Shown here in pieces: positions 220 to 15,890 of a stretch of 64,000 nt of DNA. Each line of letters starts with the position of its first letter. The stretch's first letter is position 1. The position numbers and the translations under genes were made by a program. The notes beneath the pieces are model-generated. The model worked only from the letters and a program-made list of their open reading frames with translations. It was not told the origin of the DNA and did no database searches. This DNA is from Spirochaetaceae bacterium (GTDB lineage Bacteria > Spirochaetota > Spirochaetia > B11-G9): NCBI GenBank assembly GCA_015493635.1, contig WGCU01000079.1, forward strand, positions 23,674 to 87,673, given 5' to 3'.

Positions 220-245
220 TTTTTACCTCTCTTTTTCTTTATCCT

Positions 246-899
246 CTATTGCCTGGAAAGCTCATCTTTCATAGTAAGGTACTCCTGCCTGCCTATATCT
301 CCCCTGGCGTACCGTACTTTCAATGCTGACAAAGGATCATTACTGCCAGTAACATACTTTCTGTTTCTTTTTACGAGATAAACGAGAAGAACAGCGGCTG
401 CCAGTATCAGCAATCCTATAAGAACCGGAACAATCCATCCCATGTATCCTCTGAATCCATAAAAAGGCATAAATCCGCCGAATCTTCCCTCCCTGAAACC
501 TCTTCCGTACATCTTCCCGCTGTCGAATGAACCGCTGCCCATCATCAGAGAACCGAAATCAGTGCTTCCGTTTGCCAGATACCGGTAACCCAGCAGTTTG
601 TGCATGTTGCTGAGACTCTGTGAACCCTCTCCGCCTATCATTTTATCCATCCATTCATGCTGCCTGGGATCGGGAATCTGAAAGCTCATAACAGCTTCTC
701 CCAGTTTTTCAAGGGACGCGTCGCTTACCTTGTCCGGCTCTATTCTGTCATTACTGCCGATGTTCAGTTCGCTTCGTATTCCCGACAGAATAGTATCTAT
801 TGATGCGCCGTGACTCTCTGAAGTATCAGCAAATACTACTGAACCAAAAAGAAGCATACTTGCCAGAAGAAATGCAAAAATGTTTTTGTTTTTAATCAT
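246..899 (-). CDS. Secreted/membrane-anchored protein with C-terminal SHOCT domain; Met/Gly-rich central region
   Basis: N-terminal signal peptide (MIKNKNIFAFLLASMLLFGSVVFA), one C-terminal TM helix, SHOCT-like tail LKVRYARGDIGRQEYLTMKDEL. ATG at 899 has a GAGGAAG RBS. The ORF-track TTG at 917 is less likely. Confidence 0.7.
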   Translation of the reverse strand: MIKNKNIFAFLLASMLLFGSVVFADTSESHGASIDTILSGIRSELNIGSNDRIEPDKVSDASLEKLGEAVMSFQIPDPRQHEWMDKMIGGEGSQSLSNMHKLLGYRYLANGSTDFGSLMMGSGSFDSGKMYGRGFREGRFGGFMPFYGFRGYMGWIVPVLIGLLILAAAVLLVYLVKRNRKYVTGSNDPLSALKVRYARGDIGRQEYLTMKDELSRQ

Positions 900-1128
900 T
901 ATAGTCTTCCTCTTCAAGAATGGTATTTTTCATTTCTTCATATTCATGCAGCGTAATTTCTCCTTTCGCGTATCGCTTTTTAAGTACCTCAAATGAAGAG
1001 GTATTTTTCCCCGAAACAAAGTTGTCTATAAACCCGCCCCGGTTATAACGCTGCCGTTTACCTGTGCCGTTGATAAAATAGATAACACCCACAATCACCA
1101 GAACCAAAAAGATAATCATCATAGTCAA
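892..1128 (-). CDS. Small membrane protein with SHOCT domain
   Basis: TM helix (MTMMIIFLVLVIVGVIYF) then SHOCT motif LKKRYAKGEITLHEYEEMKNTI. AAGGAG RBS upstream of ATG 1128. Confidence 0.7.
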   Translation of the reverse strand: MTMMIIFLVLVIVGVIYFINGTGKRQRYNRGGFIDNFVSGKNTSSFEVLKKRYAKGEITLHEYEEMKNTILEEEDYND

Positions 1129-1159
1129 ACTCCTTGTCTACCATACCCACCTAGGGTAT

Positions 1160-1196
1160 CTGGTATAAATATAATATAGTTTAGCAATGATGTCAA
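1160..1196 (-). promoter_or_regulatory. sigma70-type promoter for the SHOCT gene pair
   Basis: Minus strand: TTGACA (1195..1190), 16-17 nt spacer, TTATAT/TATATT, then a ~45 nt leader with AAGGAG RBS. Confidence 0.45.
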
Positions 1197-1200
1197 GTAT

Positions 1201-1356
1201 TATTCTCAAACGAGTGAGGGGAGCGGAATAACTTGTTGGTTCCTGGCCTAAGCGAGTGCAGAGAACGAAAGGTTGAAATACCCCGCGGCTTGCCGCGGAA
1301 TAGGCTGCTATAGCGGCCTGAGTCCAGGGTTTACCCTGGGGTATTGAAACCTTTCA
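1201..1356 (-). repeat. Copy 1 of a ~155-nt structured repeat element (candidate ncRNA or MITE-like); inverted relative to copy 2 at 14587..14745
   Basis: Reverse complement aligns to 14587..14745 at about 85% identity over the first ~110 nt and the last ~25 nt. Begins ATGAAAGG, ends CTCACTCGTTTGAGAAT. Three hairpins plus a ~20-bp closing stem. TAA stop in the only ATG frame, so non-coding. Confidence 0.85.
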
Positions 1357-1359
1357 TTG

Positions 1360-1384
1360 TAAAAAATTTAGAACAAGCAGTTCT
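1360..1384 (-). terminator. Rho-independent terminator of the HD-GYP gene
   Basis: Minus strand AGAAC-tgctt-GTTCT hairpin followed by AAATTTTTT. Confidence 0.5.
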
Positions 1385-1398
1385 TTATCCACGGAATA

Positions 1399-3108
1399 CT
1401 AATCACTCATTTCCGCATAGATCTCGTTAAATTTCTGATGATTATCCATGAAAAGCTCGAAAATTTTCTTGCCGAAAATCTTTTCGCCGCTGGTATTGGT
1501 GTAATCGTCCATTCTAATAATTTCAAGTGTTTTTTCATGGGAAAAAGCAGGTTTGTAGTGCCTTTTGCTGCGGAGGGCATCGTATCTGTCGGACAGGGAA
1601 ACAAAAAGCGCTTCCAGGGGAATTTCTTCTCCTGCCAGGGGTTTCAGTGAATGATAGTAGGCAGTTTCTTTGCTGGAGAGAGGTGCAAGGGTTCCGTTTT
1701 CTGTGACAAGACCGGGGTAATCGGTTCCGGCCCATATTTGATGATGGTTTAACGCTATCTGAAAAGCCATCTCCAGCCGGGGTTCGCGGTACGTTGAATC
1801 CATCATACGCTGCAGGATCTGGGCGCCGTAGACCGGGTGCATTTCAAGTTCCAGCCGTTCGGATATTGTCAGCTTTCTTTCAAGTTTAATAAGATAAGGG
1901 ATGGCAATCTTTCCTATATCATGAATCGAGGCAACCTGGCCGATTGACCGGCAGAAAATTTCATCCATTCCGTAAAGCTTCGCGGCCAGGCGTGCAAATG
2001 TATTAACACGGTATATATGCTGTCCGGTCATCTCATCACTGAATTCCGAAGACGCGCAGAGTCCTTCCACGGACTGCATGAATTTTGCATCATTCCTTAT
2101 CGCAAGATCAATAAGGGAATAAGTAACCCATGCGGTATTAACGTACGCCTGAATTGCCAGCTGATCATACCGGGTTAAATCAGTATTCTTGTTAAAGGCG
2201 ATAATTGAAAAATTTCCGGAATGATACACCAGATAGTTTTCTATGGGATTTCCTATAAAGGATTTTACCGATTCATTAAAAGGATTCATTTTCTCAAAAT
2301 CGGTTCGGGAAGGATACAGTGATACTTTTTCACAGACAGCTTCATTTTTTATGCGGGATTTCCAAACTGGCGCCGATGTTGCCTTGCCTATTTCTACTTC
2401 AGCTGAAACGACGGCTCCTGTTGCATATTCCCTTATGTCCTTGTATATTTCCCCATGGAGAATGTCTTCATTTTCAAGCTGGGTGATAAGCACCGCGTTG
2501 AACCCGTGGCCCAACAGCAGCCGGGCAAGCCGTTCGTAGATAGTATTATGTATCACAAGGGAATCAAGTGAGTTGATGATGTCTGTATTGAATCTCTGAA
2601 TATCGTGGATGCTCTGCTCGTACTCGTGGTAGGGTGTTGTATCATTCAGCCAGATGAGGTATCTGTTTTCTGTTTTTTTAAGTTCTACCGTATACCATTT
2701 GTTTGTTACATCAGAAAAGAACGATTTCCCTGCCAGTTGAGAAAGTTCATCAGACTGTCCGATTCCTTCTAAAAAATCATGGATGGTCTTTATGTGGTTT
2801 GAATCACAGAGTTCCTTTGTTTTTCCTGCCATGGCGGTAATAACTCCCCGGGGAGTTGTAATGAAAACAGGATCCTCCCGCTGTTCCGGCAAACTTAAAA
2901 GGAGATCTTTACTTAAATGCATGTATTTTACACTGGCTTTTGTAAATACCTGAACGAGAAAGGGGATGATATAAGGAATTACCGAACTGGTAAGTGATAC
3001 CTGCTCTAAAATATTTATAAAAAAGCCTACAAGAACTGCAAGGAAAAATGTTATGGGAGATTTAATTTCTTTCCATAATAATTTAAGATAGGTTTTTATT
3101 TTATTCAT
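1399..3108 (-). CDS. Membrane-associated HD-GYP domain c-di-GMP phosphodiesterase
   Basis: N-terminal TM segment; C-terminal HD-GYP signature HDIGKIAIP...HH..W.G.GYP. Confidence 0.85.
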   Translation of the reverse strand: MNKIKTYLKLLWKEIKSPITFFLAVLVGFFINILEQVSLTSSVIPYIIPFLVQVFTKASVKYMHLSKDLLLSLPEQREDPVFITTPRGVITAMAGKTKELCDSNHIKTIHDFLEGIGQSDELSQLAGKSFFSDVTNKWYTVELKKTENRYLIWLNDTTPYHEYEQSIHDIQRFNTDIINSLDSLVIHNTIYERLARLLLGHGFNAVLITQLENEDILHGEIYKDIREYATGAVVSAEVEIGKATSAPVWKSRIKNEAVCEKVSLYPSRTDFEKMNPFNESVKSFIGNPIENYLVYHSGNFSIIAFNKNTDLTRYDQLAIQAYVNTAWVTYSLIDLAIRNDAKFMQSVEGLCASSEFSDEMTGQHIYRVNTFARLAAKLYGMDEIFCRSIGQVASIHDIGKIAIPYLIKLERKLTISERLELEMHPVYGAQILQRMMDSTYREPRLEMAFQIALNHHQIWAGTDYPGLVTENGTLAPLSSKETAYYHSLKPLAGEEIPLEALFVSLSDRYDALRSKRHYKPAFSHEKTLEIIRMDDYTNTSGEKIFGKKIFELFMDNHQKFNEIYAEMSD

Positions 3109-3170
3109 GTTTCAATTATGGTATACCAGATATGAAGTGTCAAACATAATGGATTAAAGGAATTTTGTTT

Positions 3171-6100
3171 ATGCGGTTGAAGTTGTCAATCATGATATTC
3201 TGTATGTTTTTGTTACTCTCAATTGCCGTTTCAATGTTGTTTTATCATATTTCGGCTGATGCGGAAATAAAAACCCTGATTGGGGCGGAGCAGGAAATTC
3301 TGTCCTTTGAGAAACTGATTATTGATGAACATCTGAAAAATCTTGAAATGGATGTGAAGTACCTTGCCGTACAGCGGAAGACCATAGCGTTTGTCCAGAG
3401 CCGATACAATCCGGCTTACGACCCTTCTGCTTTGTATATATCGTTCCTTAAACGGAAAGACATCTTTTCTTCTGTACAGATTATTGACTCTTCCGGAAAA
3501 GAAATGCTCCGGATCAACGTTGATAACGGCAGAATTATCAGATTGAAAAGCGGTGCATTACAGGAAAAAGGCAATCGGTACTATTTTCAGGAAATAATGA
3601 ACAGTAATCCCTCTTCCGTGTATGTATCAAATTTTGATTTTGACCGTGATGATGGTAAATCCGTTTTTTTCCCCCGTTCTGTTTTACGGTTAGGAAAGGT
3701 TCTGCTTGATAGAGGAGGAAACAGGCAGGCTGTTATTGTGCTTACCTATCAGGGAGATTCCCTTTTTAAACTCATTAACAATGAGGATTTCTCTCATGCA
3801 GGATTACTTTCATTGATAAACAGCGAAAATAAAATTTTCTCTGAGGAAAAAGGAACAATACAGTTTAATGCCGAACTGGGCAATTTTATCACTTCTTCGG
3901 ACTGGGATGAACTTGATTCCAATCCGGAAGGATATGTTGCCGGTGATTTTGGCATTATTTTTTATAAACATTTTACCATTCCCGGATCCTTTGAAAAGCG
4001 GAAAGCTGCACTTGTTTCCTTTGTAACTCCAGAAAGGCGCGGAATTCTGCTTCATCCGGTTAGAGTGAGGGCTCTGTATATTCTTTTATGTTTAATGGTA
4101 TTGTCACTTATTCCTTCATTGCTGATTACCTCCTATATAGCAAAGAAAAAGGTAGCAAATAATGAGTTGCTGATTCTGAGAGCAGCAGTTTCTCAAAGTG
4201 CCAATTCAATTGTCATAACTGATACGGAAGGGGTCATTAAATTTGTAAACGCTGCTTTTGAAAGACTGACCGGTTATACTTTCAATGAGCTGGAGGGGGT
4301 AAATCCCCGTATTTTAAAAAGCGGACATCAGAATGAGGATTTTTATATTGATCTGTGGCATACCATTAAATCCGGCAGGGTATGGTCCGGAATTTTCCTT
4401 AATAAACGGAAAGATGAAACGAATTACTGGGAGAGAGCAACAATATCACCGGTTTATGACAGGAAAAAGAGGATACGATACTATATTGCTGTAAAAGAGG
4501 ATATTACCGAAAAGAAAAGAATTGAAAATGAATTAAAACGGGAACATGAACAACTGGTACTGGCAAAGAATGATGCTGAATCAGCCAGAGAAGAGGCTGA
4601 AAAAGCTAATCTGTTAAAGAGTGCTTTTCTTGCAAATATCTCACATGAAATTCGTACTCCCATGAATGCGGTTCTTGGATTTTCTCAGATGCTTATGAAG
4701 AATGAAACGGAAGAAAACAAGGCAAAAAAGCTGAAAGTAATTATTGAATCAGGGCAAAATCTGCTTGCTCTGATAAATGATATTCTTGATCTGTCGAAGG
4801 TTGAAGCAGGAGAAGTTGAAGTACATCCATCAGAAATAAGTATCAGGGATGAGACAAAAGAAGTTATGCAGCTTTTGCAGGGGGAAGCGGAGAGGAAGGA
4901 ACTTGAGCTTGATTTTGAGATTGCAGAGGATGTACCTTCTCTTATCCACGGTGATGCTGATCTGATACGGAAAATTCTTGCTAATATTGTATCCAATGCC
5001 ATAAAATTTACTCACCATGGATCAGTCAGCGTTTACATTTCAAGAGACGGAGATTTATTAAATATTTCCATACGTGATACCGGAATAGGAATTCCGGAAA
5101 ATACCCGTGAAACAATATTTGAACCTTTCAAACAGCAGGATTCTTCCTCCAGCAGACAGTACGGAGGTGCCGGATTAGGTCTCGCTTTATCAAAAAGATA
5201 TGCTGAGCTGATGGGAGGTGACATAACTGTTTCAAGTACTCCGGGAATGGGAACACTGTTTGTATGCACTCTTCCCTTCACCGTAGTGCCCGATGATCCC
5301 ACCTGCCCGGAGAACAGTGGTATAACAGAATCTTTGCCTCTTTATCCGGTATGGAAGGACCGGCTGGTAAAAGACGGCAACCTCCTTGTGGATGTTTTAA
5401 ACGAGACTGTTGAAAAATTTCCCGGACAGATGGAAAAACTTTATTCGGCAGTAAAAGGTGGTGATTATACTCTGGCAAAAAGAATAACGCATACCCTTAT
5501 GGGAAGCACAGGCAGTCTGAAAATGTTTGAAGTGCGGGATACACTCAAAAGGATAGATGATTTGCTGCACCCCAAATCTACTCATAAGAGGGAAATACTC
5601 TCTTTTTGTAAAGATCTCCTGCTGCTGTCTGAGAATAGCAGAGATTTATCAAGGGAAGCCGGGAAGCCTGAAAATACAATTAAAGATGGTTCTGGTGCCG
5701 CAAAGGAAGGGCTGCCGTCTTCAAGGATTCTTGCGGCGGATGATGATGAAAGTGTCCGTAATGTTATCGCGGCTTTTCTTAAGTATTCAGGAATGCATGC
5801 TGATTTTGCTGTAAACGGTGAGGATGTTCTTGAAAAACTTGCAAACGGGAGCTATGATATTCTTCTCATTGATTTACAGATGCCGGTGCTTGATGGTATT
5901 GAAACAGTAAAAGAGATCAGGAAAAAAAGTATCTATAATGATCTGTATATCATTGCTGTCACCGGTGACGAATGTGAAAAAATCAAGCTAGACTTTGTAA
6001 AGACGGGATTTGATGACTGCATTTCAAAACCGCTGGATATGGAATCCTTTATTAAAAAGATTCAGGAAAAGAAGTCTGATAATAACGTAACATGGATTAT

Positions 6101-6299
6101 CGAGGATCTTGAACCTTTGGTTAAAGCCTTTAATGCGGATAAGGTAGTCAACGTTGCCCGGGAGATCGAGTCGAAAAGTGACTCTGTATATCTAAAGAGC
6201 ATTTCTTCCAGAATACGGAACATAGCTTCTTCGTATGATTCAAATGCACTGTTGGCACTGATTAAAGAATTGAAGGGAACGTATGGAAATGAGAGATAA
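3171..6299 (+). CDS. Hybrid sensor histidine kinase (periplasmic sensor, PAS, HisKA, HATPase_c, Hpt, REC)
   Basis: Two TM helices flanking a ~270 aa periplasmic domain, PAS/PAC, H-box LANISHEIRTPMNAVLGF, G-boxes, Hpt motif HTLMGSTGSL, receiver ILAADDDESVRN...DLQMP. ATG 3171 after an AAAGGA RBS. Confidence 0.9.
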   Translation: MRLKLSIMIFCMFLLLSIAVSMLFYHISADAEIKTLIGAEQEILSFEKLIIDEHLKNLEMDVKYLAVQRKTIAFVQSRYNPAYDPSALYISFLKRKDIFSSVQIIDSSGKEMLRINVDNGRIIRLKSGALQEKGNRYYFQEIMNSNPSSVYVSNFDFDRDDGKSVFFPRSVLRLGKVLLDRGGNRQAVIVLTYQGDSLFKLINNEDFSHAGLLSLINSENKIFSEEKGTIQFNAELGNFITSSDWDELDSNPEGYVAGDFGIIFYKHFTIPGSFEKRKAALVSFVTPERRGILLHPVRVRALYILLCLMVLSLIPSLLITSYIAKKKVANNELLILRAAVSQSANSIVITDTEGVIKFVNAAFERLTGYTFNELEGVNPRILKSGHQNEDFYIDLWHTIKSGRVWSGIFLNKRKDETNYWERATISPVYDRKKRIRYYIAVKEDITEKKRIENELKREHEQLVLAKNDAESAREEAEKANLLKSAFLANISHEIRTPMNAVLGFSQMLMKNETEENKAKKLKVIIESGQNLLALINDILDLSKVEAGEVEVHPSEISIRDETKEVMQLLQGEAERKELELDFEIAEDVPSLIHGDADLIRKILANIVSNAIKFTHHGSVSVYISRDGDLLNISIRDTGIGIPENTRETIFEPFKQQDSSSSRQYGGAGLGLALSKRYAELMGGDITVSSTPGMGTLFVCTLPFTVVPDDPTCPENSGITESLPLYPVWKDRLVKDGNLLVDVLNETVEKFPGQMEKLYSAVKGGDYTLAKRITHTLMGSTGSLKMFEVRDTLKRIDDLLHPKSTHKREILSFCKDLLLLSENSRDLSREAGKPENTIKDGSGAAKEGLPSSRILAADDDESVRNVIAAFLKYSGMHADFAVNGEDVLEKLANGSYDILLIDLQMPVLDGIETVKEIRKKSIYNDLYIIAVTGDECEKIKLDFVKTGFDDCISKPLDMESFIKKIQEKKSDNNVTWIIEDLEPLVKAFNADKVVNVAREIESKSDSVYLKSISSRIRNIASSYDSNALLALIKELKGTYGNER

Positions 6300-7347
6300 A
6301 GAACGTTTTCGGATACTCATCGTAGATGATAATAATGAGAACAGAAGAATTATTGCCATGATTCTCAGTCCGAACAAAGAGTTCGATCTGACCCTTGTCA
6401 GCAGCGGTTACGCTGCAGTAGAATTTTCACTTAAAACCATCCCGGATCTCATTCTTCTGGATATTATGATGCCGGAAATGGATGGATATGAAGTAGCTAG
6501 AAAATTAAAATCCGATGAGAGGACAAAGGATATCCCTATTCTCTTTGTAACGGCAAATACTGATGATGAAAGTATCTCGAAAGGGTTTGAGAGCGGAGGG
6601 ATTGATTATATTACCAAACCATTCAACCATAATGAACTGCTTGCCCGGGTGAATGTACAGGTCCGGTTAAAAAAATATCACAAGCAGCTTGAGGAACAGA
6701 ATAGGTTGCTGCTTGAGAAGAAATCGCTCCTCACCGCGCTTGTGGATGAGAAGACGAAAAAGATAGCGGACATAACCCGCGCGCTTGTTACCGCATTGGA
6801 GAACGCAAACCAGATGAACGATACCGATACCGGAGAGCATATCAAGCGTGTCAGTGAGTATGCCGGAATTATTGCCCTGGAACGGACTGGTGATATTGAT
6901 TTCTCAAAACAGATCAGACTTTATTCATCCCTTCATGATGTGGGAAAGGTCGGTATTCCTGATATTCTTTTAAAAAAACCGGGGATGTACACTGCTTTGG
7001 AGAGGGAAACGATGAGACAGCATGTATTGTTTGGTGCAAAGATGCTTGATTCTCCCGGAATACCCCGTCTAGCTGTTAATATTGCACGGTATCATCATGA
7101 GAAGTGGGATGGCTCGGGATATCTGGAAGGGCTCTCCGGCAGTGATATTCCTCTGGAGGCACGGATTGTTACGCTTGCGGATATATACGATGCGCTTGGA
7201 ACAAAGAGAACGTATAAAGATGCTTTTCCAGAAGATAAAATTGATGAAATAATTCTGGAGGGTAAGGGGACTTTTTTTGATCCTGAACTTGTCGATCTGT
7301 TCTTTAAAAATAAATCAAAAATGCTTGAAGTAAAGCGAATGCTGTAA
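6283..7347 (+). CDS. Response regulator with REC and HD-GYP domains (RpfG-like)
   Basis: REC (RILIVDDNNENRR...LLDIMMPEMDG) plus HD-GYP (HDVGKVGIP...HHEKWDGSGY). Overlaps the kinase stop by 17 nt. Confidence 0.9.
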   Translation: MEMRDKERFRILIVDDNNENRRIIAMILSPNKEFDLTLVSSGYAAVEFSLKTIPDLILLDIMMPEMDGYEVARKLKSDERTKDIPILFVTANTDDESISKGFESGGIDYITKPFNHNELLARVNVQVRLKKYHKQLEEQNRLLLEKKSLLTALVDEKTKKIADITRALVTALENANQMNDTDTGEHIKRVSEYAGIIALERTGDIDFSKQIRLYSSLHDVGKVGIPDILLKKPGMYTALERETMRQHVLFGAKMLDSPGIPRLAVNIARYHHEKWDGSGYLEGLSGSDIPLEARIVTLADIYDALGTKRTYKDAFPEDKIDEIILEGKGTFFDPELVDLFFKNKSKMLEVKRML

Positions 7348-7353
7348 ACTATT

Positions 7354-9087
7354 TCAAAGAGGAAGAGTAAAATAAAAAATTGAGCCTCCCTCTGGATTAT
7401 CAGTGATACCTGTTTCTCCTCCCAATTTCTCTACAATACGTTTCACAATAGAAAGTCCCAGACCGTTGCCTTCTACTGTTTCCCCGCCAAGCCGGATAAA
7501 GGGTTTAAAAAGTTTCTTTTTTTGATTTTCAGTAAGTCCTTTTCCGTTATCACTAACAAGGTACTGAACACTTTTGTCTTTTATTTTTTCCTGCAATTTT
7601 ACGACAGGCGGTGTTCCTCCATATTTGACAGCGTTGCTGATGTAATTAATCCAGACCTGTTCGATCCAGGGGGCGTAACTGTGTACGGTTGTCCAGCCGT
7701 CAGGTTTTAAAACCAGAGCATTTCTGTCTTTCACTGTAAGAGACAGTCTTTCAAGCACCGTTTCAATGATTGTTTCCATGGATACCGGTCCAAAAGTGAT
7801 ATTTTTTGTTATATCAACTTCTGAAAGAAGAAAAATTTCTTTAATGATGGAATCTATCTTCTTCCCGTTTTGGTGTATATTCTGAATCATAGCTTTTCTT
7901 TCGGTTTCCTGAACGTCTTTTTCTCTTGCCATAAGAATATTGGAAAAACCCAATATAGCTGTAAGCGGGTTTTTTATGTCATGGGAAACCATCCTTGAGA
8001 AAGCTTCAAGTTCTTTATTCTTTTGTTCAAGTTTTTCAGCATACGTTCGTAATTCGGTAATATTACTCATGGTAAGAACATAACCGGCTGCATATTTATT
8101 ATTTTCAAGCAGAGGTGTAATTCTTATACGGTAGTATTCCTGAGGTTGATCTTGTCCGTGTTCAAAGGTAAGCTCGCATTCTGACCCCTGAAGTTTGTCA
8201 AGCGCACTCAGGATTCTGTTGTTGAAAATGGAAGGGAACACGGCATCAGCCGGATACCCCCGGATATCTTCTATGGTGCTGACGGAAAAAACAAGTGCTT
8301 CCCTGTTGAAATCCATAATCTGTTTAAATCTGTCAAGAATAATGAAAGGATCTGTTATGGAATCCATCAGTATTTCTCTGGCAATAGGGGTAACACTGAA
8401 GAAACTATTTTTAAAAACAGCATAGAACAGGGGGATAATACTGATGGATAAGATAAGGGGTGATATGTCAAAATGTTCGGGAAGTATCTTAAGGATATAA
8501 AAAATATTTCCAACCCAGTTTATTATGGAAAATGAAAGCAGCAGCAGTATCTGCCAGCGGAAAACGGGTGAAGTATTCAGGTAACTGTGTAAAAGAATGA
8601 TGACAGCAATAATTAAAAGGCCGTATGAATAAGTAATGTTGATAAAGTACCATAAACCCGGTGAAAAATTCAGTGTAACAAACAATTCTTCCTTTAAAAG
8701 AGAGGGATGTACCCATATCAGATGGTGAATACTGTTTGTCCATGCTGCCAGTGCCGAAAGTGAAGGAATGAAAAAAAACAGAAAGAATTTCGAGGGTTTA
8801 ATCTTTCCGAGCTTGCCTGTATAGGTAAGAACCAGTGAAATCCATGTGGGAGCAATAAAGGGGGCGCCAAGGTATTCAACCTTTGACCAGAATAAAACAT
8901 TCGAGAAGGAATATCCGGTAAGTTCAAAAAAATATGCGCCTGACCATACAAACATCTGAGCCATAAGAGCGGTAAACCAGCCTACACTTGCTGACCGGTG
9001 ATTCAGTAAGCCTTTTAACATCATGGTGCCGGAGAAAAGCGCTGCCAGCAGCACAGAAAGTGTGTAAACGTTCAAACGATTTCCCAT
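7354..9087 (-). CDS. Sensor histidine kinase with N-terminal 7TM receptor-type domain
   Basis: Seven predicted TM helices, PAS-like linker, H-box FSRMVSHDIKNPL, HATPase_c GNGLGLSIVKR. Confidence 0.85.
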   Translation of the reverse strand: MGNRLNVYTLSVLLAALFSGTMMLKGLLNHRSASVGWFTALMAQMFVWSGAYFFELTGYSFSNVLFWSKVEYLGAPFIAPTWISLVLTYTGKLGKIKPSKFFLFFFIPSLSALAAWTNSIHHLIWVHPSLLKEELFVTLNFSPGLWYFINITYSYGLLIIAVIILLHSYLNTSPVFRWQILLLLSFSIINWVGNIFYILKILPEHFDISPLILSISIIPLFYAVFKNSFFSVTPIAREILMDSITDPFIILDRFKQIMDFNREALVFSVSTIEDIRGYPADAVFPSIFNNRILSALDKLQGSECELTFEHGQDQPQEYYRIRITPLLENNKYAAGYVLTMSNITELRTYAEKLEQKNKELEAFSRMVSHDIKNPLTAILGFSNILMAREKDVQETERKAMIQNIHQNGKKIDSIIKEIFLLSEVDITKNITFGPVSMETIIETVLERLSLTVKDRNALVLKPDGWTTVHSYAPWIEQVWINYISNAVKYGGTPPVVKLQEKIKDKSVQYLVSDNGKGLTENQKKKLFKPFIRLGGETVEGNGLGLSIVKRIVEKLGGETGITDNPEGGSIFYFTLPL

Positions 9088-9134
9088 TGATAACCATTAT
9101 CGTACAATATAAATACCTTGTAAAGGACTTTTCA

Positions 9135-9881
9135 TTACAGATCGAGTACACGCAGGGCAACAGGGATAAGCAGCATCATCAATACTTCTCCGGTTTCTAT
9201 CAGACTGCCGTAAGCGTCGCCGGTAAGTCCTCCGAGTATTCTGCTGATAATGAGAGCTGCAATACCAAGAAGCAGAAGTGTTGTCAGACAGATTAAAATT
9301 GCCGGCAGTCCTCCAAGGATAAAGACGATGGTAAGGGTGAAAATTCCGGCAATAACCGGTTTCCATACTCCCATATGCTTCTTGAAGAAGGAACCCATAC
9401 CCTCCTTACGCGCGGAAGGGAACATGACAATAAAGTTCATGGTAATCCAGCGGGCGCTCATCGGTATTAGAATAAGGTAAAACTGGTTTCCCTCTGTCAT
9501 CATCTGGATAATCAGACTCCATTTAAGAAGAACGAGTATAACGAGAGCGAGAACTCCGAATGCTCCTGACCGGCTGTCTTTCATAATTGAAAGTTTCTCT
9601 TCTTTTGTCCTGCCGCCTCCCAGGCCGTCTGCAAGATCCGCCAGCCCGTCAAGATGAAGCCCTCCGGAGATAACAATCCACAGGAGGCAGATGAGAGCAG
9701 CGTTTACTTCGGGAATAAACAACAGGTTAAATAATCTTTCTGCTCCAAACAAAAGGGTGCCGATAAGAAGTCCTGCCACCGGGAAAAAGGCTGCCGAACC
9801 TCCCACCTTTGCCATGTTTTCACCCTGTTTATAGGGAACGGGGATGATGGTTAAAAACCGTAGTGCATAGAGCAGTCCCAT
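9135..9881 (-). CDS. cobS: Adenosylcobinamide-GDP ribazoletransferase (cobalamin synthase)
   Basis: MGLLYALRFLTIIPVP N-terminus and a polytopic ~248 aa CobS-family profile. Confidence 0.8.
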   Translation of the reverse strand: MGLLYALRFLTIIPVPYKQGENMAKVGGSAAFFPVAGLLIGTLLFGAERLFNLLFIPEVNAALICLLWIVISGGLHLDGLADLADGLGGGRTKEEKLSIMKDSRSGAFGVLALVILVLLKWSLIIQMMTEGNQFYLILIPMSARWITMNFIVMFPSARKEGMGSFFKKHMGVWKPVIAGIFTLTIVFILGGLPAILICLTTLLLLGIAALIISRILGGLTGDAYGSLIETGEVLMMLLIPVALRVLDL

Positions 9882-9884
9882 GGT

Positions 9885-10439
9885 TCATCCCTTCAACTTC
9901 TGAGGGATACCGGCAGTCATTAAATAAACGGTATCGGCAGCGGAAGCAATAATCTGGTGGCTTATCCCGGCAATGTCCTGAAAAATGCCGCCGAGCCTTG
10001 TTGGTGCGACAAGGCCTGCTTCAACATGGTTGGAAATAATAATCAAATCAGGTTCAATCTCAACAGCCTGTGCGAGGATTGCTTTTACTTCGGACGTTAC
10101 ACGTCTCAAGGCTTCTTCCGCATCAGGGTTTTCCCCGAGTTCCATCAGAATATTTGTAGAGAGCATTGTCAGGCAGTCAATAATCACCGCCGCTTTATTC
10201 CCGGCAGCTTTACCGAGTATTCCTGAAACCTCCAAAGGTTCTTCTACCGTTATCCATTTTTTCGGCCGGGAGCTGCGGTGGACGGCAATTCTTTTTTTCA
10301 TTCCTTCATCGAGGCCCCATGCTGTTGCTATGTAGGTTACATTCTTTCCTTTTCCCGTTGCTAATTCAGCGGCGAGTTTTTGTGCGAATGATGTTTTCCC
10401 GCTTTTTGTTCCTCCCAGTACAAGGATTACTTTTCCCAT
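9885..10439 (-). CDS. cobU: Adenosylcobinamide kinase / adenosylcobinamide-phosphate guanylyltransferase
   Basis: P-loop MGKVILVLGGTKSGKTSFAQ. Start placed at ATG 10439 (GGAGGA RBS 10 nt upstream, 185 aa) rather than the track's 10571. Confidence 0.75.
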   Translation of the reverse strand: MGKVILVLGGTKSGKTSFAQKLAAELATGKGKNVTYIATAWGLDEGMKKRIAVHRSSRPKKWITVEEPLEVSGILGKAAGNKAAVIIDCLTMLSTNILMELGENPDAEEALRRVTSEVKAILAQAVEIEPDLIIISNHVEAGLVAPTRLGGIFQDIAGISHQIIASAADTVYLMTAGIPQKLKG

Positions 10440-10588
10440 ATTTCCAGTTTCCTCCATTACTACTCTTTCAGGATAATAGATCTTTTCCCCGTATAATACA
10501 AGAAATAGTATTTCTCCATTTTTCAGGACGGTAATGAGTATAGGAATGGTGGGCTGTTGTATGGTATACATGCTGCAGGAGCTGTTAC

Positions 10589-11755
10589 TTGAAATTGAAA
10601 TTCAGTATAAACTATTTTCTGTTTTTTTCTACCATTGCTGTCCTTGCGCCGTATCTTCAGGTACTGCTGAGGAATAAAGGCTTTTCTTCCCCTGATATAG
10701 GGCTTCTGTTGGGGGTTTATGAAATCTCCGGCATTGCGGGCCCTCTTCTTGCGGGTTTGGCTGCTGAGAAAATGGGAAAATACCGGCTCCCCCTGTTGAT
10801 TTTTTCTTTTACTGCCGGAGGGATTCTTTTTCTTCTCGGTATAAGTACAGGGTTTATAAGCGCAGGGATTTCTCTCGTTATATTCGGTCTTTTTTACCGT
10901 CCCATACCGTCACTTCAGGATGCGCTTGCTTCACGTATTCTGCATAATCCGGTAAAAAATTACGGTGGTGTAAGAATATGGGGGAGCATAGGTTTTATAA
11001 CGGTTTCTTTGAGCATTCAGCTTTTCCATTTAATAGATGCATCATCTTCTTTTCAGATTATTACAATCTTTGGTATTTTTTCCACGTTGCTTTTTATAAG
11101 TACAGCAGTGCTGCCGGAAGTTGAAACTATTCGGCCCAATCCGGGACATGTTTCCGGTATCCCCCGTCTTTCAGGAAGATTGACCCTGCCGTTCTATCTG
11201 GCCCTTTTGACTGCTTTTTTTATTAAAATGGGATTAAGCGGATACTATTCCTTTTTTACTTTGTATCTTCAGGATGTCTATTCCTTAAAGGGTGTAAGCG
11301 GGATCTGGGCTCTGGGAGCTATTGCAGAGATACCGATGATTCTCTGGGGAAGCCGGCTGGTAACCCGTTTCAATCCTGCGGCGATGCTTGTTCTTTCAGT
11401 TTTGGGCTCTGCTGCCAGGTTATTCATATATGCCGCGGGTCTGCCCCTTCCCTTTGTATTGGCAGCTCAGTTCCTGCACGCATTTTCATTCGGCCTTATT
11501 CATATTACTGTGATAAGTGTTATAAATCATACGGTCAAACCGCATAGACGGGCATTTGCAATGTCACTCTATGGCGGCATAGGGTTTGGACTTGCGGGAT
11601 TTATCGGGAGCAGTATAAGCGGGTACGTTTTAGGAGGATTCGGATTTAACGTGCTCTATATCTTTTGCGGTGCGGTAACCCTTATTCCTCTGGTACCGGT
11701 TTTAATCTTCCGGAAACGGGCAGAGGAAGAATATTCCGGTATACTGGTTTCGTAA
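10589..11755 (+). CDS. MFS transporter (12 TM)
   Basis: Twelve hydrophobic segments and a GxLaDrxGrkxxl-type loop (AAEKMGKYR). TTG start after an AGGAG RBS. Confidence 0.8.
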   Translation: MKLKFSINYFLFFSTIAVLAPYLQVLLRNKGFSSPDIGLLLGVYEISGIAGPLLAGLAAEKMGKYRLPLLIFSFTAGGILFLLGISTGFISAGISLVIFGLFYRPIPSLQDALASRILHNPVKNYGGVRIWGSIGFITVSLSIQLFHLIDASSSFQIITIFGIFSTLLFISTAVLPEVETIRPNPGHVSGIPRLSGRLTLPFYLALLTAFFIKMGLSGYYSFFTLYLQDVYSLKGVSGIWALGAIAEIPMILWGSRLVTRFNPAAMLVLSVLGSAARLFIYAAGLPLPFVLAAQFLHAFSFGLIHITVISVINHTVKPHRRAFAMSLYGGIGFGLAGFIGSSISGYVLGGFGFNVLYIFCGAVTLIPLVPVLIFRKRAEEEYSGILVS

Positions 11756-13002: not shown

Positions 13003-14553
13003 CTATAACGGCATATTGCCGTGTTTCTTCACGGGCCGTGTTTCTTCTTTTCCCAGGTACATCTCAAGTGATTTCCAGAGGGCCTTGCGTGTTTGTGCCG
13101 GATCAATGACGTCATCAACATAACCGTAACCTGCCGCGATAAAGGGGTTCATTACCTGCACCTTGAACTCTTCAATCTTTTCCTGCCGTTTTGCCGCGGG
13201 GTCTTCTGCAGCTTCAATTTCTTTTCTGAATATAATATTGGCGGCTCCCTCCGCGCCCATTACTGCTATTTCTGCTGCGGGGTAGGCAAGAACCCGGTCG
13301 TACCCAAGGTTTTTTGATGCCATGGCAATAAATGCTCCACCGTATCCTTTTCTTACTATAAGAGCAATTTTTGGTACGGTAGCTTCTGCTATCGCAAAAA
13401 GAAGCTTGGCACCGTGGCGTATAATACCTCCGTGTTCCTGAGCGGTACCCGGCAGAAATCCCGGTACATCCACAAGAGATACAACAGGAATATTAAAAGA
13501 ATCGCAGAACCGGACGAACCGGGCGGCTTTATCAGATGCGTTGATGTCAAGAACGGCAGCCATCATTTTGGGCTGATTCGCCATAATTCCCACGGTGTAT
13601 CCGTTTAATTTTGCAAATCCCACAACGATGTTCTGTGCAAAATCCGCCTGTACTTCAATGAAAGAATCTGCATCAAAAGCGGAATTGATAAGACTGCGGA
13701 TATCATACGGCTTCCTCTGGTTTTCAGGAAGAAGGTCCTTCAGTTCCGGTGTCGGTCTGTCAACAGGATCTGTACATTCAGAAACAGGAGGTTTCTCCTT
13801 GTTGTTTGACGGGAGATAGCTTAAAAGCCGCCTTGTAAAAGCAAGACACTCATCTTCAGATTTAAACCTGAAATGAGCATTACCGCTTTTAAAGGTATGG
13901 GCTCGTGCTCCGCCCAGATCTTCCTGAGAGATTTCTTCACCTGTCACCGCTTTGATAACCTGGGGACCGGTAATGTACATGTTGCTTACTTTTTCCACCA
14001 TCATGATGAAATCGGTAATGGCCGGTGAATACACAGCTCCACCTGCGCAGGGCCCGAGAATTATGGAAATCTGCGGAATTACTCCTGAGCTCAGCGTATT
14101 TGCTCTGAAAATTTTTGCGTATCCGTCCAGGGAAAGTGTCCCTTCCTGAATACGTGCTCCGCCGGAATCATTTATCTGGATGAAGGGCGAACCGGTTTTA
14201 AGGGCATCGATCTGGGCATCAGCTATACGGATAGCGTGCATTTCTCCCAGGGAACCTCCAAGGACGGTAAAATCCTGAGAGGAAAGGTACACCTTGCGGC
14301 CGTTTATTCTGCCGCTTCCGCTGACCACACCGTCACCGGGAAATTTCTTCTTATCCATGCCGAAATCATGTGAACGGGGAACAACATAGGTATTCTGCTC
14401 CGAAAATGAATCTTCATCCAGGAGAGCTCCAATCCGTTCCCTGGCTGTTAATTTCCCCCGCTTGTGCTGTGCTTCTATCCGGGCATCACCGCCCCCTTTC
14501 AGCATCTTTTCTCTTGTTTCTTCAAACCTTGCAAAAGCTTCTTCGTTTGTCAT
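13003..14553 (-). CDS. Acyl-CoA carboxyltransferase (propionyl-CoA carboxylase beta / methylmalonyl-CoA decarboxylase alpha family)
   Basis: 516 aa, full-length match to carboxyltransferase domain proteins (MTNEEAFARFEETREKMLKGGG...). Confidence 0.9.
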   Translation of the reverse strand: MTNEEAFARFEETREKMLKGGGDARIEAQHKRGKLTARERIGALLDEDSFSEQNTYVVPRSHDFGMDKKKFPGDGVVSGSGRINGRKVYLSSQDFTVLGGSLGEMHAIRIADAQIDALKTGSPFIQINDSGGARIQEGTLSLDGYAKIFRANTLSSGVIPQISIILGPCAGGAVYSPAITDFIMMVEKVSNMYITGPQVIKAVTGEEISQEDLGGARAHTFKSGNAHFRFKSEDECLAFTRRLLSYLPSNNKEKPPVSECTDPVDRPTPELKDLLPENQRKPYDIRSLINSAFDADSFIEVQADFAQNIVVGFAKLNGYTVGIMANQPKMMAAVLDINASDKAARFVRFCDSFNIPVVSLVDVPGFLPGTAQEHGGIIRHGAKLLFAIAEATVPKIALIVRKGYGGAFIAMASKNLGYDRVLAYPAAEIAVMGAEGAANIIFRKEIEAAEDPAAKRQEKIEEFKVQVMNPFIAAGYGYVDDVIDPAQTRKALWKSLEMYLGKEETRPVKKHGNMPL

Positions 14554-14586
14554 AGTTCCTCACCTGTACCGTAAAATACAATAAAA

Positions 14587-14745
14587 ATGAAAGGTATCAA
14601 TATCCCAGGGCAAGCCCTGGACCCAGTCCGCTATCGCGGCCTATTCCGCAGCAAGCTGCGGGGTATTTTAACCTTTCGGTCTCTGCACTCGCTTGGAAAC
14701 GGGACAACCACGTTGTCCCGCTCCACTCACTCGTTTGAGAATAAA
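14587..14745 (+). repeat. Copy 2 of the ~155-nt structured repeat element (candidate ncRNA)
   Basis: Same element as 1201..1356 in opposite orientation. Hairpins CCAGGG-caag-CCCUGG, GUCCGC-uauc-GCGGCC and CCGCAG-caag-CUGCGG, with compensatory changes versus copy 1. The track ORF 14587..14787 is not conserved in copy 1. Confidence 0.85.
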
Positions 14746-14929
14746 GTTCATGTTAACAGCGGCCGCCCTTTACGTCAAGGAAAATGAAATAAAGTAAGAG
14801 GAAAATCATGGTTAAATTTACTCTTTCAGATGCCGGATAATAAATCGGTATACACGGGAGCATACTATACTTTAAAACCGGACATTTTATTTTACTGTGC
14901 AGGGAAAAAGAAAAAAATAAAACTTTATC

Positions 14930-15773: not shown

Positions 15774-15890
15774 TTCAAACACTGATATATCCATAATAAA
15801 TCTATCAGTATGGATAAAAAAACTTGTAAAATCGTCCCTTTACCGTTACTATACTTAGTGCTTCATTAATATTTTATATGGAGGTAGTGG

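What the first reader, a model, noticed from the sequence alone, without database searches (positions are those of the whole stretch)
14587..14745. Copy 2 of the structured repeat shows compensatory changes and G-U wobbles that support an RNA-level structure
Relative to copy 1:
- Hairpin 3 changes CCGCGG/CCGCGG to CCGCAG/CUGCGG, a G-C to A-U double substitution.
- Hairpin 2 becomes a perfect GUCCGC/GCGGCC stem with a U-G wobble. Copy 1 has a C/A mismatch in that orientation but a U-G wobble when read on the plus strand.
- The closing stem keeps pairing through a C-G to U-G change.
- The central ~30 nt between the junction and the conserved 3' tail is replaced by a different hairpin: GGGACAAccacgUUGUCCC here, versus GGAACCAACAAGUUAUUCC in copy 1.
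- Here the element lies in a divergent intergenic region. On the minus strand it is in the 5' leader region of the carboxyltransferase gene (start 14553). On the plus strand it is ~185 nt upstream of the GNAT promoter.
- The ORF-track peptide 14587..14787 is not conserved in copy 1 and is probably spurious.
Basis: seen in the sequence. Interest (0 to 1): 0.6.

Follow-up and report, generated by a model that had tools for sequence, protein, structure and literature searches.

The report
Mobile structured repeat in spirochaete genomes
This 155-base stretch is one copy of a small, tightly folded "jumping" DNA repeat that has spread through a group of uncultured spirochaetes, landing between genes and even in-frame inside genes; it is not a dedicated regulatory RNA of the neighbouring gene.

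Summary
The repeat is real. Window 14586-14745 (+) and 1199-1358 (-) are 85% identical copies of a ~154-nt element with sharp borders, and both fold far better than shuffles. I recovered eight more full copies and one partial copy from related spirochaete assemblies and metagenome contigs. Across ten copies the fold (helices P1, P2, P6; hairpins H1-H4) is 94% paired. Nine pairs changed on both sides, against 2.7 expected. One detail is wrong: hairpin 2 of copy 2 has a U·C mismatch, not a U-G wobble. The RNA reading is not specifically supported, because G·U versus mismatch counts are the same on both strands. The element is mobile. Relatives at 89-94% identity have an empty site here, and a 98% relative has a copy where the window has an empty AATAAA. 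All ten copies sit at AAT|AA(A/T). There are no terminal inverted repeats. Four copies lie in-frame inside real genes (miaA, hipA, a TolC-like gene, an MBL-fold gene), each with loop indels that make the length a multiple of three and avoid all stops, as in Rickettsia palindromic elements. The mobilising enzyme is unknown; an IS200/IS605-type single-strand mechanism fits best. Copy 2 landed at the start of the carboxyltransferase leader.

The parts
14586..14745 (+). Copy 2 of the repeat in its forward orientation: 5' AAT (14586-14588), 154-nt insert (14589-14742, ending in AAT), then AAA of the AATAAA target (14743-14745).
   Evidence: Borders come from filled versus empty sites.
14589..14677 (+). 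5' domain of copy 2. P1 is GAAAGGT 14589-14595 with ACCTTTC 14671-14677. P2 is 14599-14604 with 14662-14667. The hairpins are H1 14605-14620, H2 14625-14642 and H3 14646-14661, forming a four-way junction.
   Evidence: MFE fold; consensus and pair counts.
14678..14742 (+). 3' domain of copy 2. P6 is GGTCTC 14678-14683 with GAGAAT 14737-14742, enclosing hairpin H4 (GGGACAAC-CAC-GTTGTCCC, 14701-14719). The P6 5' strand follows the P1 3' strand with no spacer, so the two element termini lie side by side.
   Evidence: helix 1 is columns 6-12 with 92-98; helix 6 is columns 99-104 with 160-165.
1199..1358 (-). Copy 1 (forward orientation on the minus strand): 5' AAT 1358-1356, 154-nt insert 1355-1202, then AAT 1201-1199. 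It lies 40 nt after the stop of the HD-GYP gene (1399-3108, -) and just before the TTGACA-17-TATATT promoter of the next gene.
14750..14778 (-). Promoter of the carboxyltransferase gene (TTGACG-17-TAACAT, with a TG before the -10). It is conserved in all relatives and ends within a few nt of the insertion point, so the whole of copy 2 is transcribed as leader.
   Evidence: conservation in the alignment (invariant TTCCTTGACG...GCTG.TAACATGA).
13003..14553 (-). Carboxyltransferase gene (acyl-CoA carboxylase beta / methylmalonyl-CoA carboxyltransferase type). Its 5' leader now contains copy 2 in reverse orientation.
   Evidence: Pfam PF01039, E = 5.7e-190; names on homologues.
15795..15800 (+). 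Unoccupied AATAAA target in the amidohydrolase/GNAT spacer. The 98% relative (L004 2008-2168) has a full copy inserted exactly here.
14573..14600 (-). Promoter-like site made of an outward-facing -35 hexamer at the reverse-strand end of the element (TTGATA here; TTGACA in c3 and c6-c8) plus a -10-like hexamer in the AT-rich flank. This is a consensus match only.
   Evidence: the same arrangement in L003: TTGACA-16-TACATT.

Best explanation
Window 14586-14745 is one copy of a ~154-156-nt non-autonomous mobile repeat, found so far only in a narrow clade of uncultured Spirochaetota and a few related metagenome contigs. SHOWN: it is present or absent at identical sites in close relatives. It always sits at AAT|AA(A/T). 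It has no terminal inverted repeats. It occurs in both orientations, between genes and in-frame inside genes. Its single-strand fold is maintained by compensatory substitutions: two closing helices P1 and P6 that bring the termini together, an inner stem P2, and four hairpins. INFERRED: the fold is kept because the enzyme that moves the element recognises the folded single strand. The best-fitting mechanism (about 35-40% likely) is 'peel-and-paste' single-strand DNA transposition by an IS200/IS605-type Y1 transposase acting in trans. In that model the window minus strand of copy 2 is the active strand, TTTATT is the flanking target motif and TTCATT is the element-encoded end motif. At this locus the element landed a few nt downstream of the -10 box of the carboxyltransferase promoter. 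This happened in the common ancestor of the window genome and its 98% relative. The gene's mRNA now begins with about 155 nt of strongly folded, reverse-orientation element RNA; any regulatory effect is a by-product and is untested. Inside genes, only copies whose length is a multiple of three and that avoid all stops are seen. These are read through as 51-52-residue inserts.
For: Repeat family: there are 10 full copies and 1 partial copy in 178 kb of window plus related loci, at 70-94% pairwise identity. A Logan contig ends inside the element, as expected for an assembly-breaking repeat. Mobility: the GNAT/carboxyltransferase spacer is filled in the window and in L004 (98% relative) but empty in L005, L006, L008 and L009 (89-94%). 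The difference is exactly the element. L004 has a copy in the amidohydrolase/GNAT spacer, where the window has a bare AATAAA. Target: 9 of 10 copies are flanked AAT...AAT|AAA and one AAT|AAT. The two bases on the 5' side are not conserved. AATAAA occurs only 101 times on both strands of the 64-kb window. Fold: z = -4.2 to -5.4. Cells paired are 94.1%, with 9 pairs changed on both sides against 2.7 +/- 1.2 (0 of 500 shuffles) and 0-4 in slid controls; four of these are in H2 of the divergent copy c10. No strand bias in wobbles. In-gene copies: miaA, hipA, a TolC-like OEP gene and an MBL-fold gene carry inserts of 156, 156, 156 and 153 nt. Their different loop indels route translation through three frames without meeting a stop. 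IS200/IS605 features per PMC7290912 and PMC10055086 are no TIR, no TSD, insertion 3' of a fixed 4-5-nt motif, a related motif at the other end, and subterminal hairpins. TTTAT and TTCAT are real TAMs in Geobacillus.
Against: No transposase of any kind lies in the window or in the 178 kb of related loci. No autonomous parent element with the same ends was found. The AAT at both ends, single in empty sites, is equally compatible with a 3-bp target duplication. I saw no obvious complementarity between candidate guide tetranucleotides at the hairpin feet and the TTTATT/TTCATT motifs, and the hairpins near the two ends are not alike, unlike IS608. Copies 1 and 2 are in opposite orientation 13 kb apart on one contig, which fits poorly with a strict lagging-strand bias. 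The in-gene copies were found through a protein search, so open-frame copies are over-sampled. The covariation rests heavily on one divergent copy (c10) and on an alignment fitted to the structure.
Confidence: 0.8

Rival explanations
1. It is a classical MITE, cut and pasted by a DDE transposase that duplicates a 3-bp AAT target. The fold is then just the legacy of inverted repeats.
For: AAT is present at both ends of all ten copies and only once in both empty sites. The element is small, multi-copy and non-coding. An internal 18-bp inverted repeat (GAAAGGTGTCAATACCCC / GGGGTATTGACACCTTTC) is perfect in c6.
Against: The termini are not inverted repeats: GAAAGGTATC versus the reverse complement of the other end, CTCAAACGAG. 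The 18-bp inverted repeat closes only the 5' domain and lies about 65 nt from the 3' end. Conserved flank bases are on one side only (AAA after the 3' AAT, nothing before the 5' AAT), whereas DDE targets are usually symmetric around the duplication. Hairpins H2, H4 and P6 show compensatory change, which a TIR legacy does not explain.
Confidence: 0.2
2. One reading: it is a functional structured RNA, either a cis-regulatory leader or a small RNA gene, that exists in two or more copies because it regulates its neighbours.
For: The fold is strong and conserved with covariation. Copy 2 is certainly transcribed in the carboxyltransferase leader. Copy c3 ends 27 nt before an Hsp20 start codon on the same strand. 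Some stems keep pairing through G·U.
Against: There is no Rfam match at gathering score, nor at E <= 10 on either strand. The neighbours are unrelated genes: HD-GYP 3' end, carboxyltransferase leader, Hsp20 upstream, a post-terminator spacer, and four coding sequences. The orientation relative to the neighbouring gene differs between loci. The orthologous leader lacks it in four relatives. G·U versus C·A counts are symmetric between strands. No terminator-like site or own promoter is conserved.
Confidence: 0.06
3. Some copies have been exapted. The element supplies a mobile outward -35 hexamer or hybrid promoter, a leader that stabilises mRNA, or new peptide segments, and this is why copies persist.
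For: The reverse-strand end carries TTGACA/TTGATA 10 nt from the border and forms promoter-like sites with the AT-rich flank at two loci. In L014 the element supplies the TGA stop of the rpoZ-like gene (gene, element from 411). Four host proteins carry the insert in frame.
Against: These are consensus matches only. At copy 2 the hybrid site would start transcription inside the Shine-Dalgarno region. The intergenic copies have no common position relative to genes. This is not exclusive of the main explanation.
Confidence: 0.15
4. It is spliced or otherwise removed from mRNA, as a mini-intron or IStron-like element, so in-gene insertions are harmless.
For: It sits inside intact-looking genes. 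IStrons are IS200/IS605- or IS607-related elements that insert in genes at a fixed pentanucleotide (PMC4227781; bioRxiv 10.1101/2023.11.20.567912).
Against: At 154-156 nt it is far below a group I core, and there is no Intron_gpI or other ribozyme hit in Rfam even at E <= 10. All four in-gene copies have lengths that are multiples of three and are free of stops in the host frame, achieved by different loop indels. Such a constraint only makes sense if the insert is translated.
Confidence: 0.03

Closest known systems
Rickettsia palindromic elements (RPEs)
   Same: Both are ~150-bp highly palindromic interspersed repeats with no coding capacity of their own. Both occur between genes and, strikingly, in-frame inside unrelated housekeeping genes, where they add a conserved peptide segment. 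For both the mobilising mechanism is unknown (review PMC10969869). Here there are four in-frame cases with a shared peptide ...RGILTFRSLHSLGNGTNKLSRSTHSFEN.
   Different: The host phylum differs (Spirochaetota versus Alphaproteobacteria), and no sequence relationship is known; I did not compare sequences directly. This family has a defined AATAAA target and a two-domain fold with a four-way junction. Its commonest intergenic form (154 nt) is not a multiple of three, and the in-gene copies carry secondary loop indels that restore the frame.
PATEs (palindrome-associated transposable elements), the ends-only derivatives of IS200/IS605
   Same: Both lack TIRs, lack a demonstrable TSD, insert next to a fixed short motif on one side only, and have a related motif at the other end (TTTATT / TTCATT here; TTTAT and TTCAT are known TAMs in Geobacillus, PMC10055086). 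Both have hairpins near both ends and are moved in trans (PMC7290912). IS605-type elements and free-standing IS605 stem-loops occur in spirochaetes (Borrelia, PMC2775950).
   Different: No cognate tnpA or tnpB and no parent element were found. The hairpins at the two ends are dissimilar. There is much more structure than two subterminal hairpins (P1/P2/P6 and a four-way junction). Guide-to-cleavage-site pairing is not evident, and the AAT repeat leaves a 3-bp TSD possible.
Structured bacterial MITE-like repeats (ERIC, Correia/NEMIS, RUP/BOX, bcr1)
   Same: Both are about 100-200-nt multi-copy intergenic repeats that fold into long stem-loops, are co-transcribed with neighbours, sometimes carry outward promoter elements, and are occasionally intragenic (PMC10969869, PMC3184786).
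   Different: Those elements have terminal inverted repeats and defined TSDs (bcr1 from my memory only). This element's ends are not inverted repeats.

Membership tests
MITE (miniature inverted-repeat transposable element) | Small, non-coding, multi-copy, with insertion polymorphism | tested here: met
   There are 10 full copies of 144-156 nt, and filled and empty sites in close relatives. Intergenic copies mostly have stops in every frame.
MITE (miniature inverted-repeat transposable element) | Terminal inverted repeats | tested here: not met
   The ends GAAAGGTATC... and ...CACTCGTTTGAG are not complementary. The 18-bp inverted repeat is internal, closing the 5' domain only.
MITE (miniature inverted-repeat transposable element) | Target-site duplication | tested here: inconclusive
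   AAT is at both ends and single in empty sites. This is indistinguishable from insertion next to a fixed motif with an element end that mimics it.
IS200/IS605-derived PATE | No TIRs; insertion 3' of a fixed 4-6-nt motif present on one side only, without duplication | tested here: met
   On the reverse strand, TTTATT (ATTATT in c1) precedes the element in 10 of 10 copies, and the base after the other end is variable. The 'without duplication' part cannot be separated from a 3-bp TSD.
IS200/IS605-derived PATE | Subterminal hairpins on the active strand, bound by TnpA; in IS608 the left and right hairpins are alike | tested here: inconclusive
   H4 starts about 20 nt from one end, and H1-H3 lie 20-75 nt from the other. 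They share only CTTG loops and are otherwise dissimilar.
IS200/IS605-derived PATE | Guide tetranucleotides at hairpin feet that pair with the cleavage motifs | tested here: inconclusive
   By inspection of the sequences there is no clear complementarity to TTTATT/TTCATT. The pairing rules are partly non-canonical, so this is not decisive.
IS200/IS605-derived PATE | Cognate Y1 transposase or an autonomous element with the same ends in the same genomes | not testable with these tools
   None appears in the window or in 178 kb of related loci. The MAGs themselves could not be searched, because the DNA scans of the large collections were exhausted and found no parent.
Rickettsia palindromic elements | ~100-150-bp palindromic repeat inserted in-frame in unrelated ORFs, encoding a conserved peptide | tested here: met
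   The host genes are miaA, hipA, a TolC-like OEP gene and an MBL-fold gene. The inserts are 156, 156, 156 and 153 nt and open in the host frame.
Rickettsia palindromic elements | Sequence membership in one of the RPE families of Rickettsia | not tested
The behaviour is alike, but membership is not claimed.
Riboswitch / cis-regulatory leader RNA | Constant position and orientation upstream of a functional class of genes, conserved in orthologous leaders | tested here: not met
   The contexts and orientations are unrelated, and the element is absent from the orthologous leader in L005, L006, L008 and L009.
Riboswitch / cis-regulatory leader RNA | Match to a curated RNA family | tested here: not met
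   Rfam 15 gives no hit at gathering score in 64 kb and nothing relevant at E <= 10. There is no tRNA or tmRNA.
REP/REPIN (RAYT-mobilised) | 20-40-nt palindromes tagged by GTAG or CGTC at one end | tested here: not met
   The element is 154 nt and contains no GTAG/CTAC or CGTC/GACG (sequence; tags per PMC3733652).
Group I intron / IStron | Ribozyme core and removal from mRNA | tested here: not met
   There is no Intron_gpI hit and the size is too small. The in-gene copies are constrained to stay open and divisible by three, which implies translation. Splicing itself was not assayed.

The most novel reading that the evidence does not exclude
The fold is not only a transposase handle. P1 and P6 use one continuous internal strand (ACCTTTC|GTTCTC) as a splint that holds the element's 3' end (GAGAAT) and 5' end (GAAAGGT) head to tail, exactly as in a circle junction. 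The same GTT can pair with either terminal AAT. The element could therefore be a self-templating circularising single strand (DNA or RNA) of a new kind. Alternatively it could be an ends-only IS200/IS605 derivative whose about 115-nt reverse-strand junction domain, which abuts the TTCATT end, is a guide-RNA (omega-RNA-like) scaffold that reads its guide from the flanking DNA and works with a TnpB/IscB encoded elsewhere.
Probability: 0.08. Interest if true: 0.85.

Novelty: new variant of a known kind. Interest (0 to 1): 0.5.

Why it matters
In-frame colonisation of protein-coding genes by a palindromic repeat is best documented, and unusually frequent, in Rickettsia. A second, unrelated family in free-living spirochaetes suggests the phenomenon is more general. 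This family also comes with features that make it tractable: a defined AATAAA target, clean filled and empty sites, and a visible frame-repair signature in which different loop indels each restore an open frame. Practically, the element breaks metagenome assemblies and creates spurious ORFs and N-terminal extensions in annotations, and it could be mistaken for a riboswitch-like RNA. If the mobilising enzyme turns out to be a Y1 transposase, the element would be an unusually elaborate ends-only derivative. Its junction domain would then be worth testing as a guide-RNA scaffold.

Tried and rejected
(1) Known RNA family: Rfam at gathering score over 64 kb and at E <= 10 around copy 2 gave nothing relevant, and ARAGORN found nothing.

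(2) Coding peptide: ORF 14587-14787 is closed in copy 1 and has no Pfam hit. Similar small ORFs in public data (P0240, P0241 and others) are spurious gene calls over other copies.

(3) Wider distribution: two exact-pattern scans of 185,579 species-representative genomes found nothing (one pattern from each domain of the element). IMG/VR found nothing. JGI metagenomes gave one contig. Distant-mode blastn against plasmids and phages found nothing.

(4) Composite transposon formed by the inverted copies 1 and 2: rejected. The genes between them next to copy 2 (carboxyltransferase, PNPOx and two small genes) are in place without the element in L006 and L009, and the synteny breaks do not coincide with the copies.

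(5) Strand assignment from wobble pairs: no bias.

(6) Transposase nearby: Pfam annotation of 46 window ORFs, plus the precomputed Pfam labels on all fetched loci, shows none.

(7) Hits P0239, P0243 and P0246 of the exhaustive protein search are giant tandem-repeat proteins whose weak similarity adds up over many repeats. I discarded them.

(8) Orthologous site for copy 1: the only relative found (70% HD-GYP, L011) has different downstream genes, so no clean empty site was obtained.
Full report
**1. What is at the coordinates**

Window 14586-14745 (+) and 1199-1358 (-) are two copies of one repeat. The repeat finder reports inverted arms of 159 nt at 85% identity. The pairwise alignment shows identity starting sharply at AATGAAAGGT and ending at TTTGAGAATAA. 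A profile search finds only these two copies in 64 kb, at E about 1e-58. Each copy folds much better than dinucleotide shuffles in either orientation:

| Copy | Strand | MFE (kcal/mol) | z-score |
|---|---|---|---|
| 2 | + | -61.7 | -4.83 |
| 2 | - | -67.9 | -4.70 |
| 1 | - | -55.6 | -4.23 |
| 1 | + | -69.4 | -5.37 |

. The fold has two domains. The 5' domain has a closing stem P1 (GAAAGGT/ACCTTTC) and an inner stem P2 around three hairpins H1-H3, forming a four-way junction. The 3' domain is closed by P6 (G[G/T]TCTC/GAGAAT) around hairpin H4. Rfam has no match at gathering score, nor at E <= 10. ARAGORN finds no tRNA or tmRNA.

**2.

- Correct: the hairpin 3 G-C to A-U double change; the C-G to U-G change, which lies in P2; and copy 1's C·A in hairpin 2, which reads as U·G on the other strand.
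- Wrong: copy 2's hairpin 2 (GUCCGC/GCGGCC) is not perfect. It contains a U·C mismatch, or G·A on the other strand (columns 47/61).
- Overstated: the central hairpin is not a replacement. Copies c3 and c4 are intermediate between copies 1 and 2.
- Correct: gene start, spacer and promoter distances. ORF 14587-14787 is indeed closed in copy 1.

**3. Organism and further copies**

The closest homologues of the adjacent carboxyltransferase that carry a source name are labelled as MAGs of Spirochaetes, Spirochaetales or Spirochaetaceae. The window is part of a 104-kb ENA scaffold. Two exact-pattern scans of 185,579 species representatives found nothing. IMG/VR, plasmids and phages also found nothing. 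JGI metagenomes gave one contig, L003, where the element ends 27 nt before an Hsp20 start codon.

Loci of close relatives, fetched through the neighbouring protein, gave two full copies and one partial copy in L004. The DNA scans were then exhausted, so I used the six-frame translation of the element as a protein query. I also submitted the window's own element-spanning ORF to the exhaustive HMMER search. Together these gave five more loci (L012-L016). The total is ten full copies at 70-94% pairwise identity. A covariance model (R1) run over 178 kb of window plus loci finds no others.

**4. The element is mobile**

The GNAT/carboxyltransferase spacer is 439 nt in the window and 416 nt in the 98% relative L004, and both contain the element. 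It is 275, 210, 210 and 257 nt in L005, L006, L008 and L009 (89-94% relatives), none of which has it. The alignment shows a clean block insertion. Conversely, L004 has a full copy in the amidohydrolase/GNAT spacer where the window has a bare AATAAA at 15795-15800.

In forward orientation, empty sites read N-AAT-AAA and filled sites read N-AAT-[GAAAGG...TTTGAG-AAT]-AAA. All ten copies follow this pattern, with AAT|AAA in nine and AAT|AAT in copy 1, while the bases before the 5' AAT vary. AATAAA occurs only 101 times on both strands of the window. The termini are not inverted repeats. One Logan contig ends inside the element, as repeats cause. L004 also holds a decayed copy, retaining only the 3' domain, about 75 nt from the full one; it replaces about 100 nt of spacer.

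**5. The fold is under selection, but the strand and molecule are undetermined**

With two or five copies the evidence is thin. At eight copies RNAalifold's covariation term is +0.77 and only 3 of 47 pairs are changed on both sides.

With ten copies aligned to the model, 94.1% of cells pair. Nine pairs show changes on both sides, against 2.7 +/- 1.2 in shuffles (0 of 500) and 0-4 in slid controls. Four of these are in H2 of the divergent copy c10 (GGCCGC/GCGGCC becomes GAGGCAC/GTGCCTC), one is in P6, and the others are in H3 and H4. Two caveats apply: the alignment was fitted to the structure, and c10 contributes much of the signal.

The only evidence that could tell RNA of one orientation from the other strand, or from DNA, is G·U versus C·A, and it is balanced: 16 G·U and 32 mismatches forward, 17 and 31 reverse. 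Individual cases point both ways. Copy 2's P2 U-G favours the forward strand, while copy 1's H2 and two pairs in c9's P1 favour the reverse strand. In c7 and c8, H2 becomes a loop-less perfect palindrome (GCCGCCATGGCGGC). In c5, the centre of H1 is precisely deleted. Both are typical of DNA palindromes.

**6. In-gene copies**

Four copies lie inside real coding sequences, all in forward orientation.

- **miaA (L014):** 19 called residues (with a possible internal TTG start giving MSTKLPN) precede the insert, and KYPVILLFGPTGVGKT, the P-loop, follows it. There is no in-frame start codon between the element and the P-loop. The element also supplies the TGA stop of the overlapping rpoZ-like gene, replacing the TAA of AATAAA.
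- **TolC-like OEP gene (L012):** the insert follows the signal peptide.
- **hipA (L013, downstream of an HTH gene):** the insert lies between the N-terminal part and the HipA_C domain.
- **MBL-fold gene (L016):** the insert is in a different codon phase.

Insert lengths are 156, 156, 156 and 153 nt in genes. The other six copies measure 154, 154, 153, 154, 144 and 156 nt.

The frame is kept open by single-nucleotide loop indels that differ between copies: H2 and H3 loops in c6, H1 and H3 loops in c7 and c8, and a deletion in the P2/P1 linker in c9. These route translation through all three frames of the element while avoiding each frame's stop codons. The ascertainment favours open copies. Even so, the constraint implies that the inserts are translated rather than spliced out. 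This is the behaviour described for Rickettsia palindromic elements (PMC10969869).

**7. What copy 2 does at its locus**

The carboxyltransferase promoter (TTGACG-17-TAACAT, 14778 to 14750, minus strand) is conserved in all relatives and ends within a few nt of the insertion point. The whole element, in reverse orientation, is therefore now the first about 155 nt of the mRNA leader. In relatives the leader is about 35 nt.

The ribosome-binding site lies about 25 nt beyond the element and is not part of the fold. Any effect on stability or translation is untested. The reverse-strand end of the element carries an outward -35-like hexamer (TTGACA/TTGATA) that forms promoter-like sites with the flank here and in L003. 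These are consensus matches only.

**8. Mechanism**

Shown: non-autonomous mobility, a fixed asymmetric target, no TIRs, and a selected single-strand fold. Inferred: the fold is the substrate recognised by the mobilising enzyme.

The best fit is IS200/IS605-type single-strand transposition. That family has no TIRs and no TSD, inserts 3' of a fixed 4-5-nt motif, carries a related motif at the other end, and has subterminal hairpins (PMC7290912). TTTAT and TTCAT are experimentally verified TAMs in Geobacillus, and PATEs lacking genes are moved in trans (PMC10055086). IS605-type elements and free stem-loops occur in Borrelia (PMC2775950). Read on its reverse strand, the element is TTTATT|CTCAAACGAG...CCTTTCATT|N.

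Against this:
- No Y1 transposase or parent element was found (and all locus annotations).
- The end hairpins are unlike each other.
- No guide pairing is evident.
- Copies 1 and 2 are oppositely oriented on one contig.
- A 3-bp AAT duplication by another enzyme cannot be excluded.

I put the mobile-repeat conclusion at about 0.9 and the Y1 mechanism at about 0.35-0.4.

One structural observation is made directly from the sequence. The 3' strand of P1 and the 5' strand of P6 are contiguous (columns 92-98 and 99-104). The folded strand therefore holds its two termini head to tail as in a circle junction, and GTT can pair with either terminal AAT. What this is used for is unknown.

**9. Comparison and novelty**

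The element works like an RPE (in-frame palindromic repeat) and, by its end features, like a PATE. It is not a MITE in the strict sense, because the TIR test fails. It is not a demonstrated PATE, because no cognate enzyme was found. It is not a member of the Rickettsia RPE families; the host differs and the sequences were not compared. I file it as a new variant of a known kind.

Interest is moderate at 0.5. It is a clear second example of gene-invading palindromic repeats, with an unusually legible frame-repair signature and an elaborate fold. It is not the regulatory RNA first proposed, and the mechanism is unresolved.

Noticed in passing
window 39398-40602 (-): Two adjacent ORFs (39398-39961 and 40003-40602) each match part of one pyridine nucleotide-disulphide oxidoreductase (Pyr_redox_2 plus Pyr_redox_dim). 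The conserved ...AEQIVFATGR... motif continues in a different frame across the TAG at 40005-40003. This is a frameshifted gene, either a pseudogene or an assembly error.
   Followed up: partly
window 1-11755 and about 8.6 kb beyond the left edge (L010 1354-21360): A block of about 20 kb lies between the small 119-aa gene and a ParA/FeS-assembly gene in this genome. It carries an MFS transporter, CobU/CobS, histidine kinases, HD-GYP proteins, a P-type ATPase, an HMA protein, a multicopper oxidase, ferritin, cytochrome P460 and ResB/CcsA. In relative L006 (GCA_054021595.1) those two flanking genes are adjacent. This is a lineage-specific insertion or deletion that includes copper-handling genes, and copy 1 lies inside it.
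   Followed up: partly
L004 3047-3163 (-): A decayed copy that retains only the 3' domain and the 3' strand of P1 sits about 75 nt from the full copy in the same spacer. It has its own TTTATT flank and replaces about 100 nt of spacer sequence present in the window and in L005. This is a second, independent hit in one spacer, followed by deletion.
   Followed up: partly
L014 411-415: The element's first bases (AATGA) supply the TGA stop codon of the upstream rpoZ-like gene (called 221-415). This replaces the TAA that the unoccupied AATAAA target would have provided. The same insertion sits in the first codons of the overlapping miaA.
   Followed up: yes
L002 1-48: A Logan contig carrying the identical carboxyltransferase ends 48 nt into the element. 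The repeat breaks short-read assemblies, so its copy number in MAGs is probably under-estimated.
   Followed up: no
window 17385-38855: There is a large nucleobase-catabolism neighbourhood: dihydropyrimidine dehydrogenase-like genes, peptidase M20, CN hydrolase, a xanthine/uracil permease, xanthine-dehydrogenase-type FAD/2Fe-2S/molybdopterin subunits, and AllG/AllH oxamate carbamoyltransferase. The carboxyltransferase, GNAT and amidohydrolase genes next to copy 2 sit at its edge.
   Followed up: no
P0239, P0243, P0246 (hits): Giant tandem-repeat surface-type proteins (4,289 and 7,573 aa) scored E about 1e-24 to 1e-7 against the 66-aa element ORF. This happened only because a weak resemblance (ISLTFDSAIALGSGTITLVND versus ILTFRSLHSLGNGTTTLSRS) is summed over many repeats. 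It shows how such searches can mislead.
   Followed up: yes
L015 1373-1538 (JGI 3300001336, contig ML7_10060977): This is the most divergent copy (70-77% identical to the others). It has a fully rewritten but still paired H2 and a perfect H4 (GGAACCAA-CAAG-TTGGTTCC). Three of its four hairpins have CAAG loops (CTTG on the other strand). The recurring loop may be a recognition feature.
   Followed up: partly
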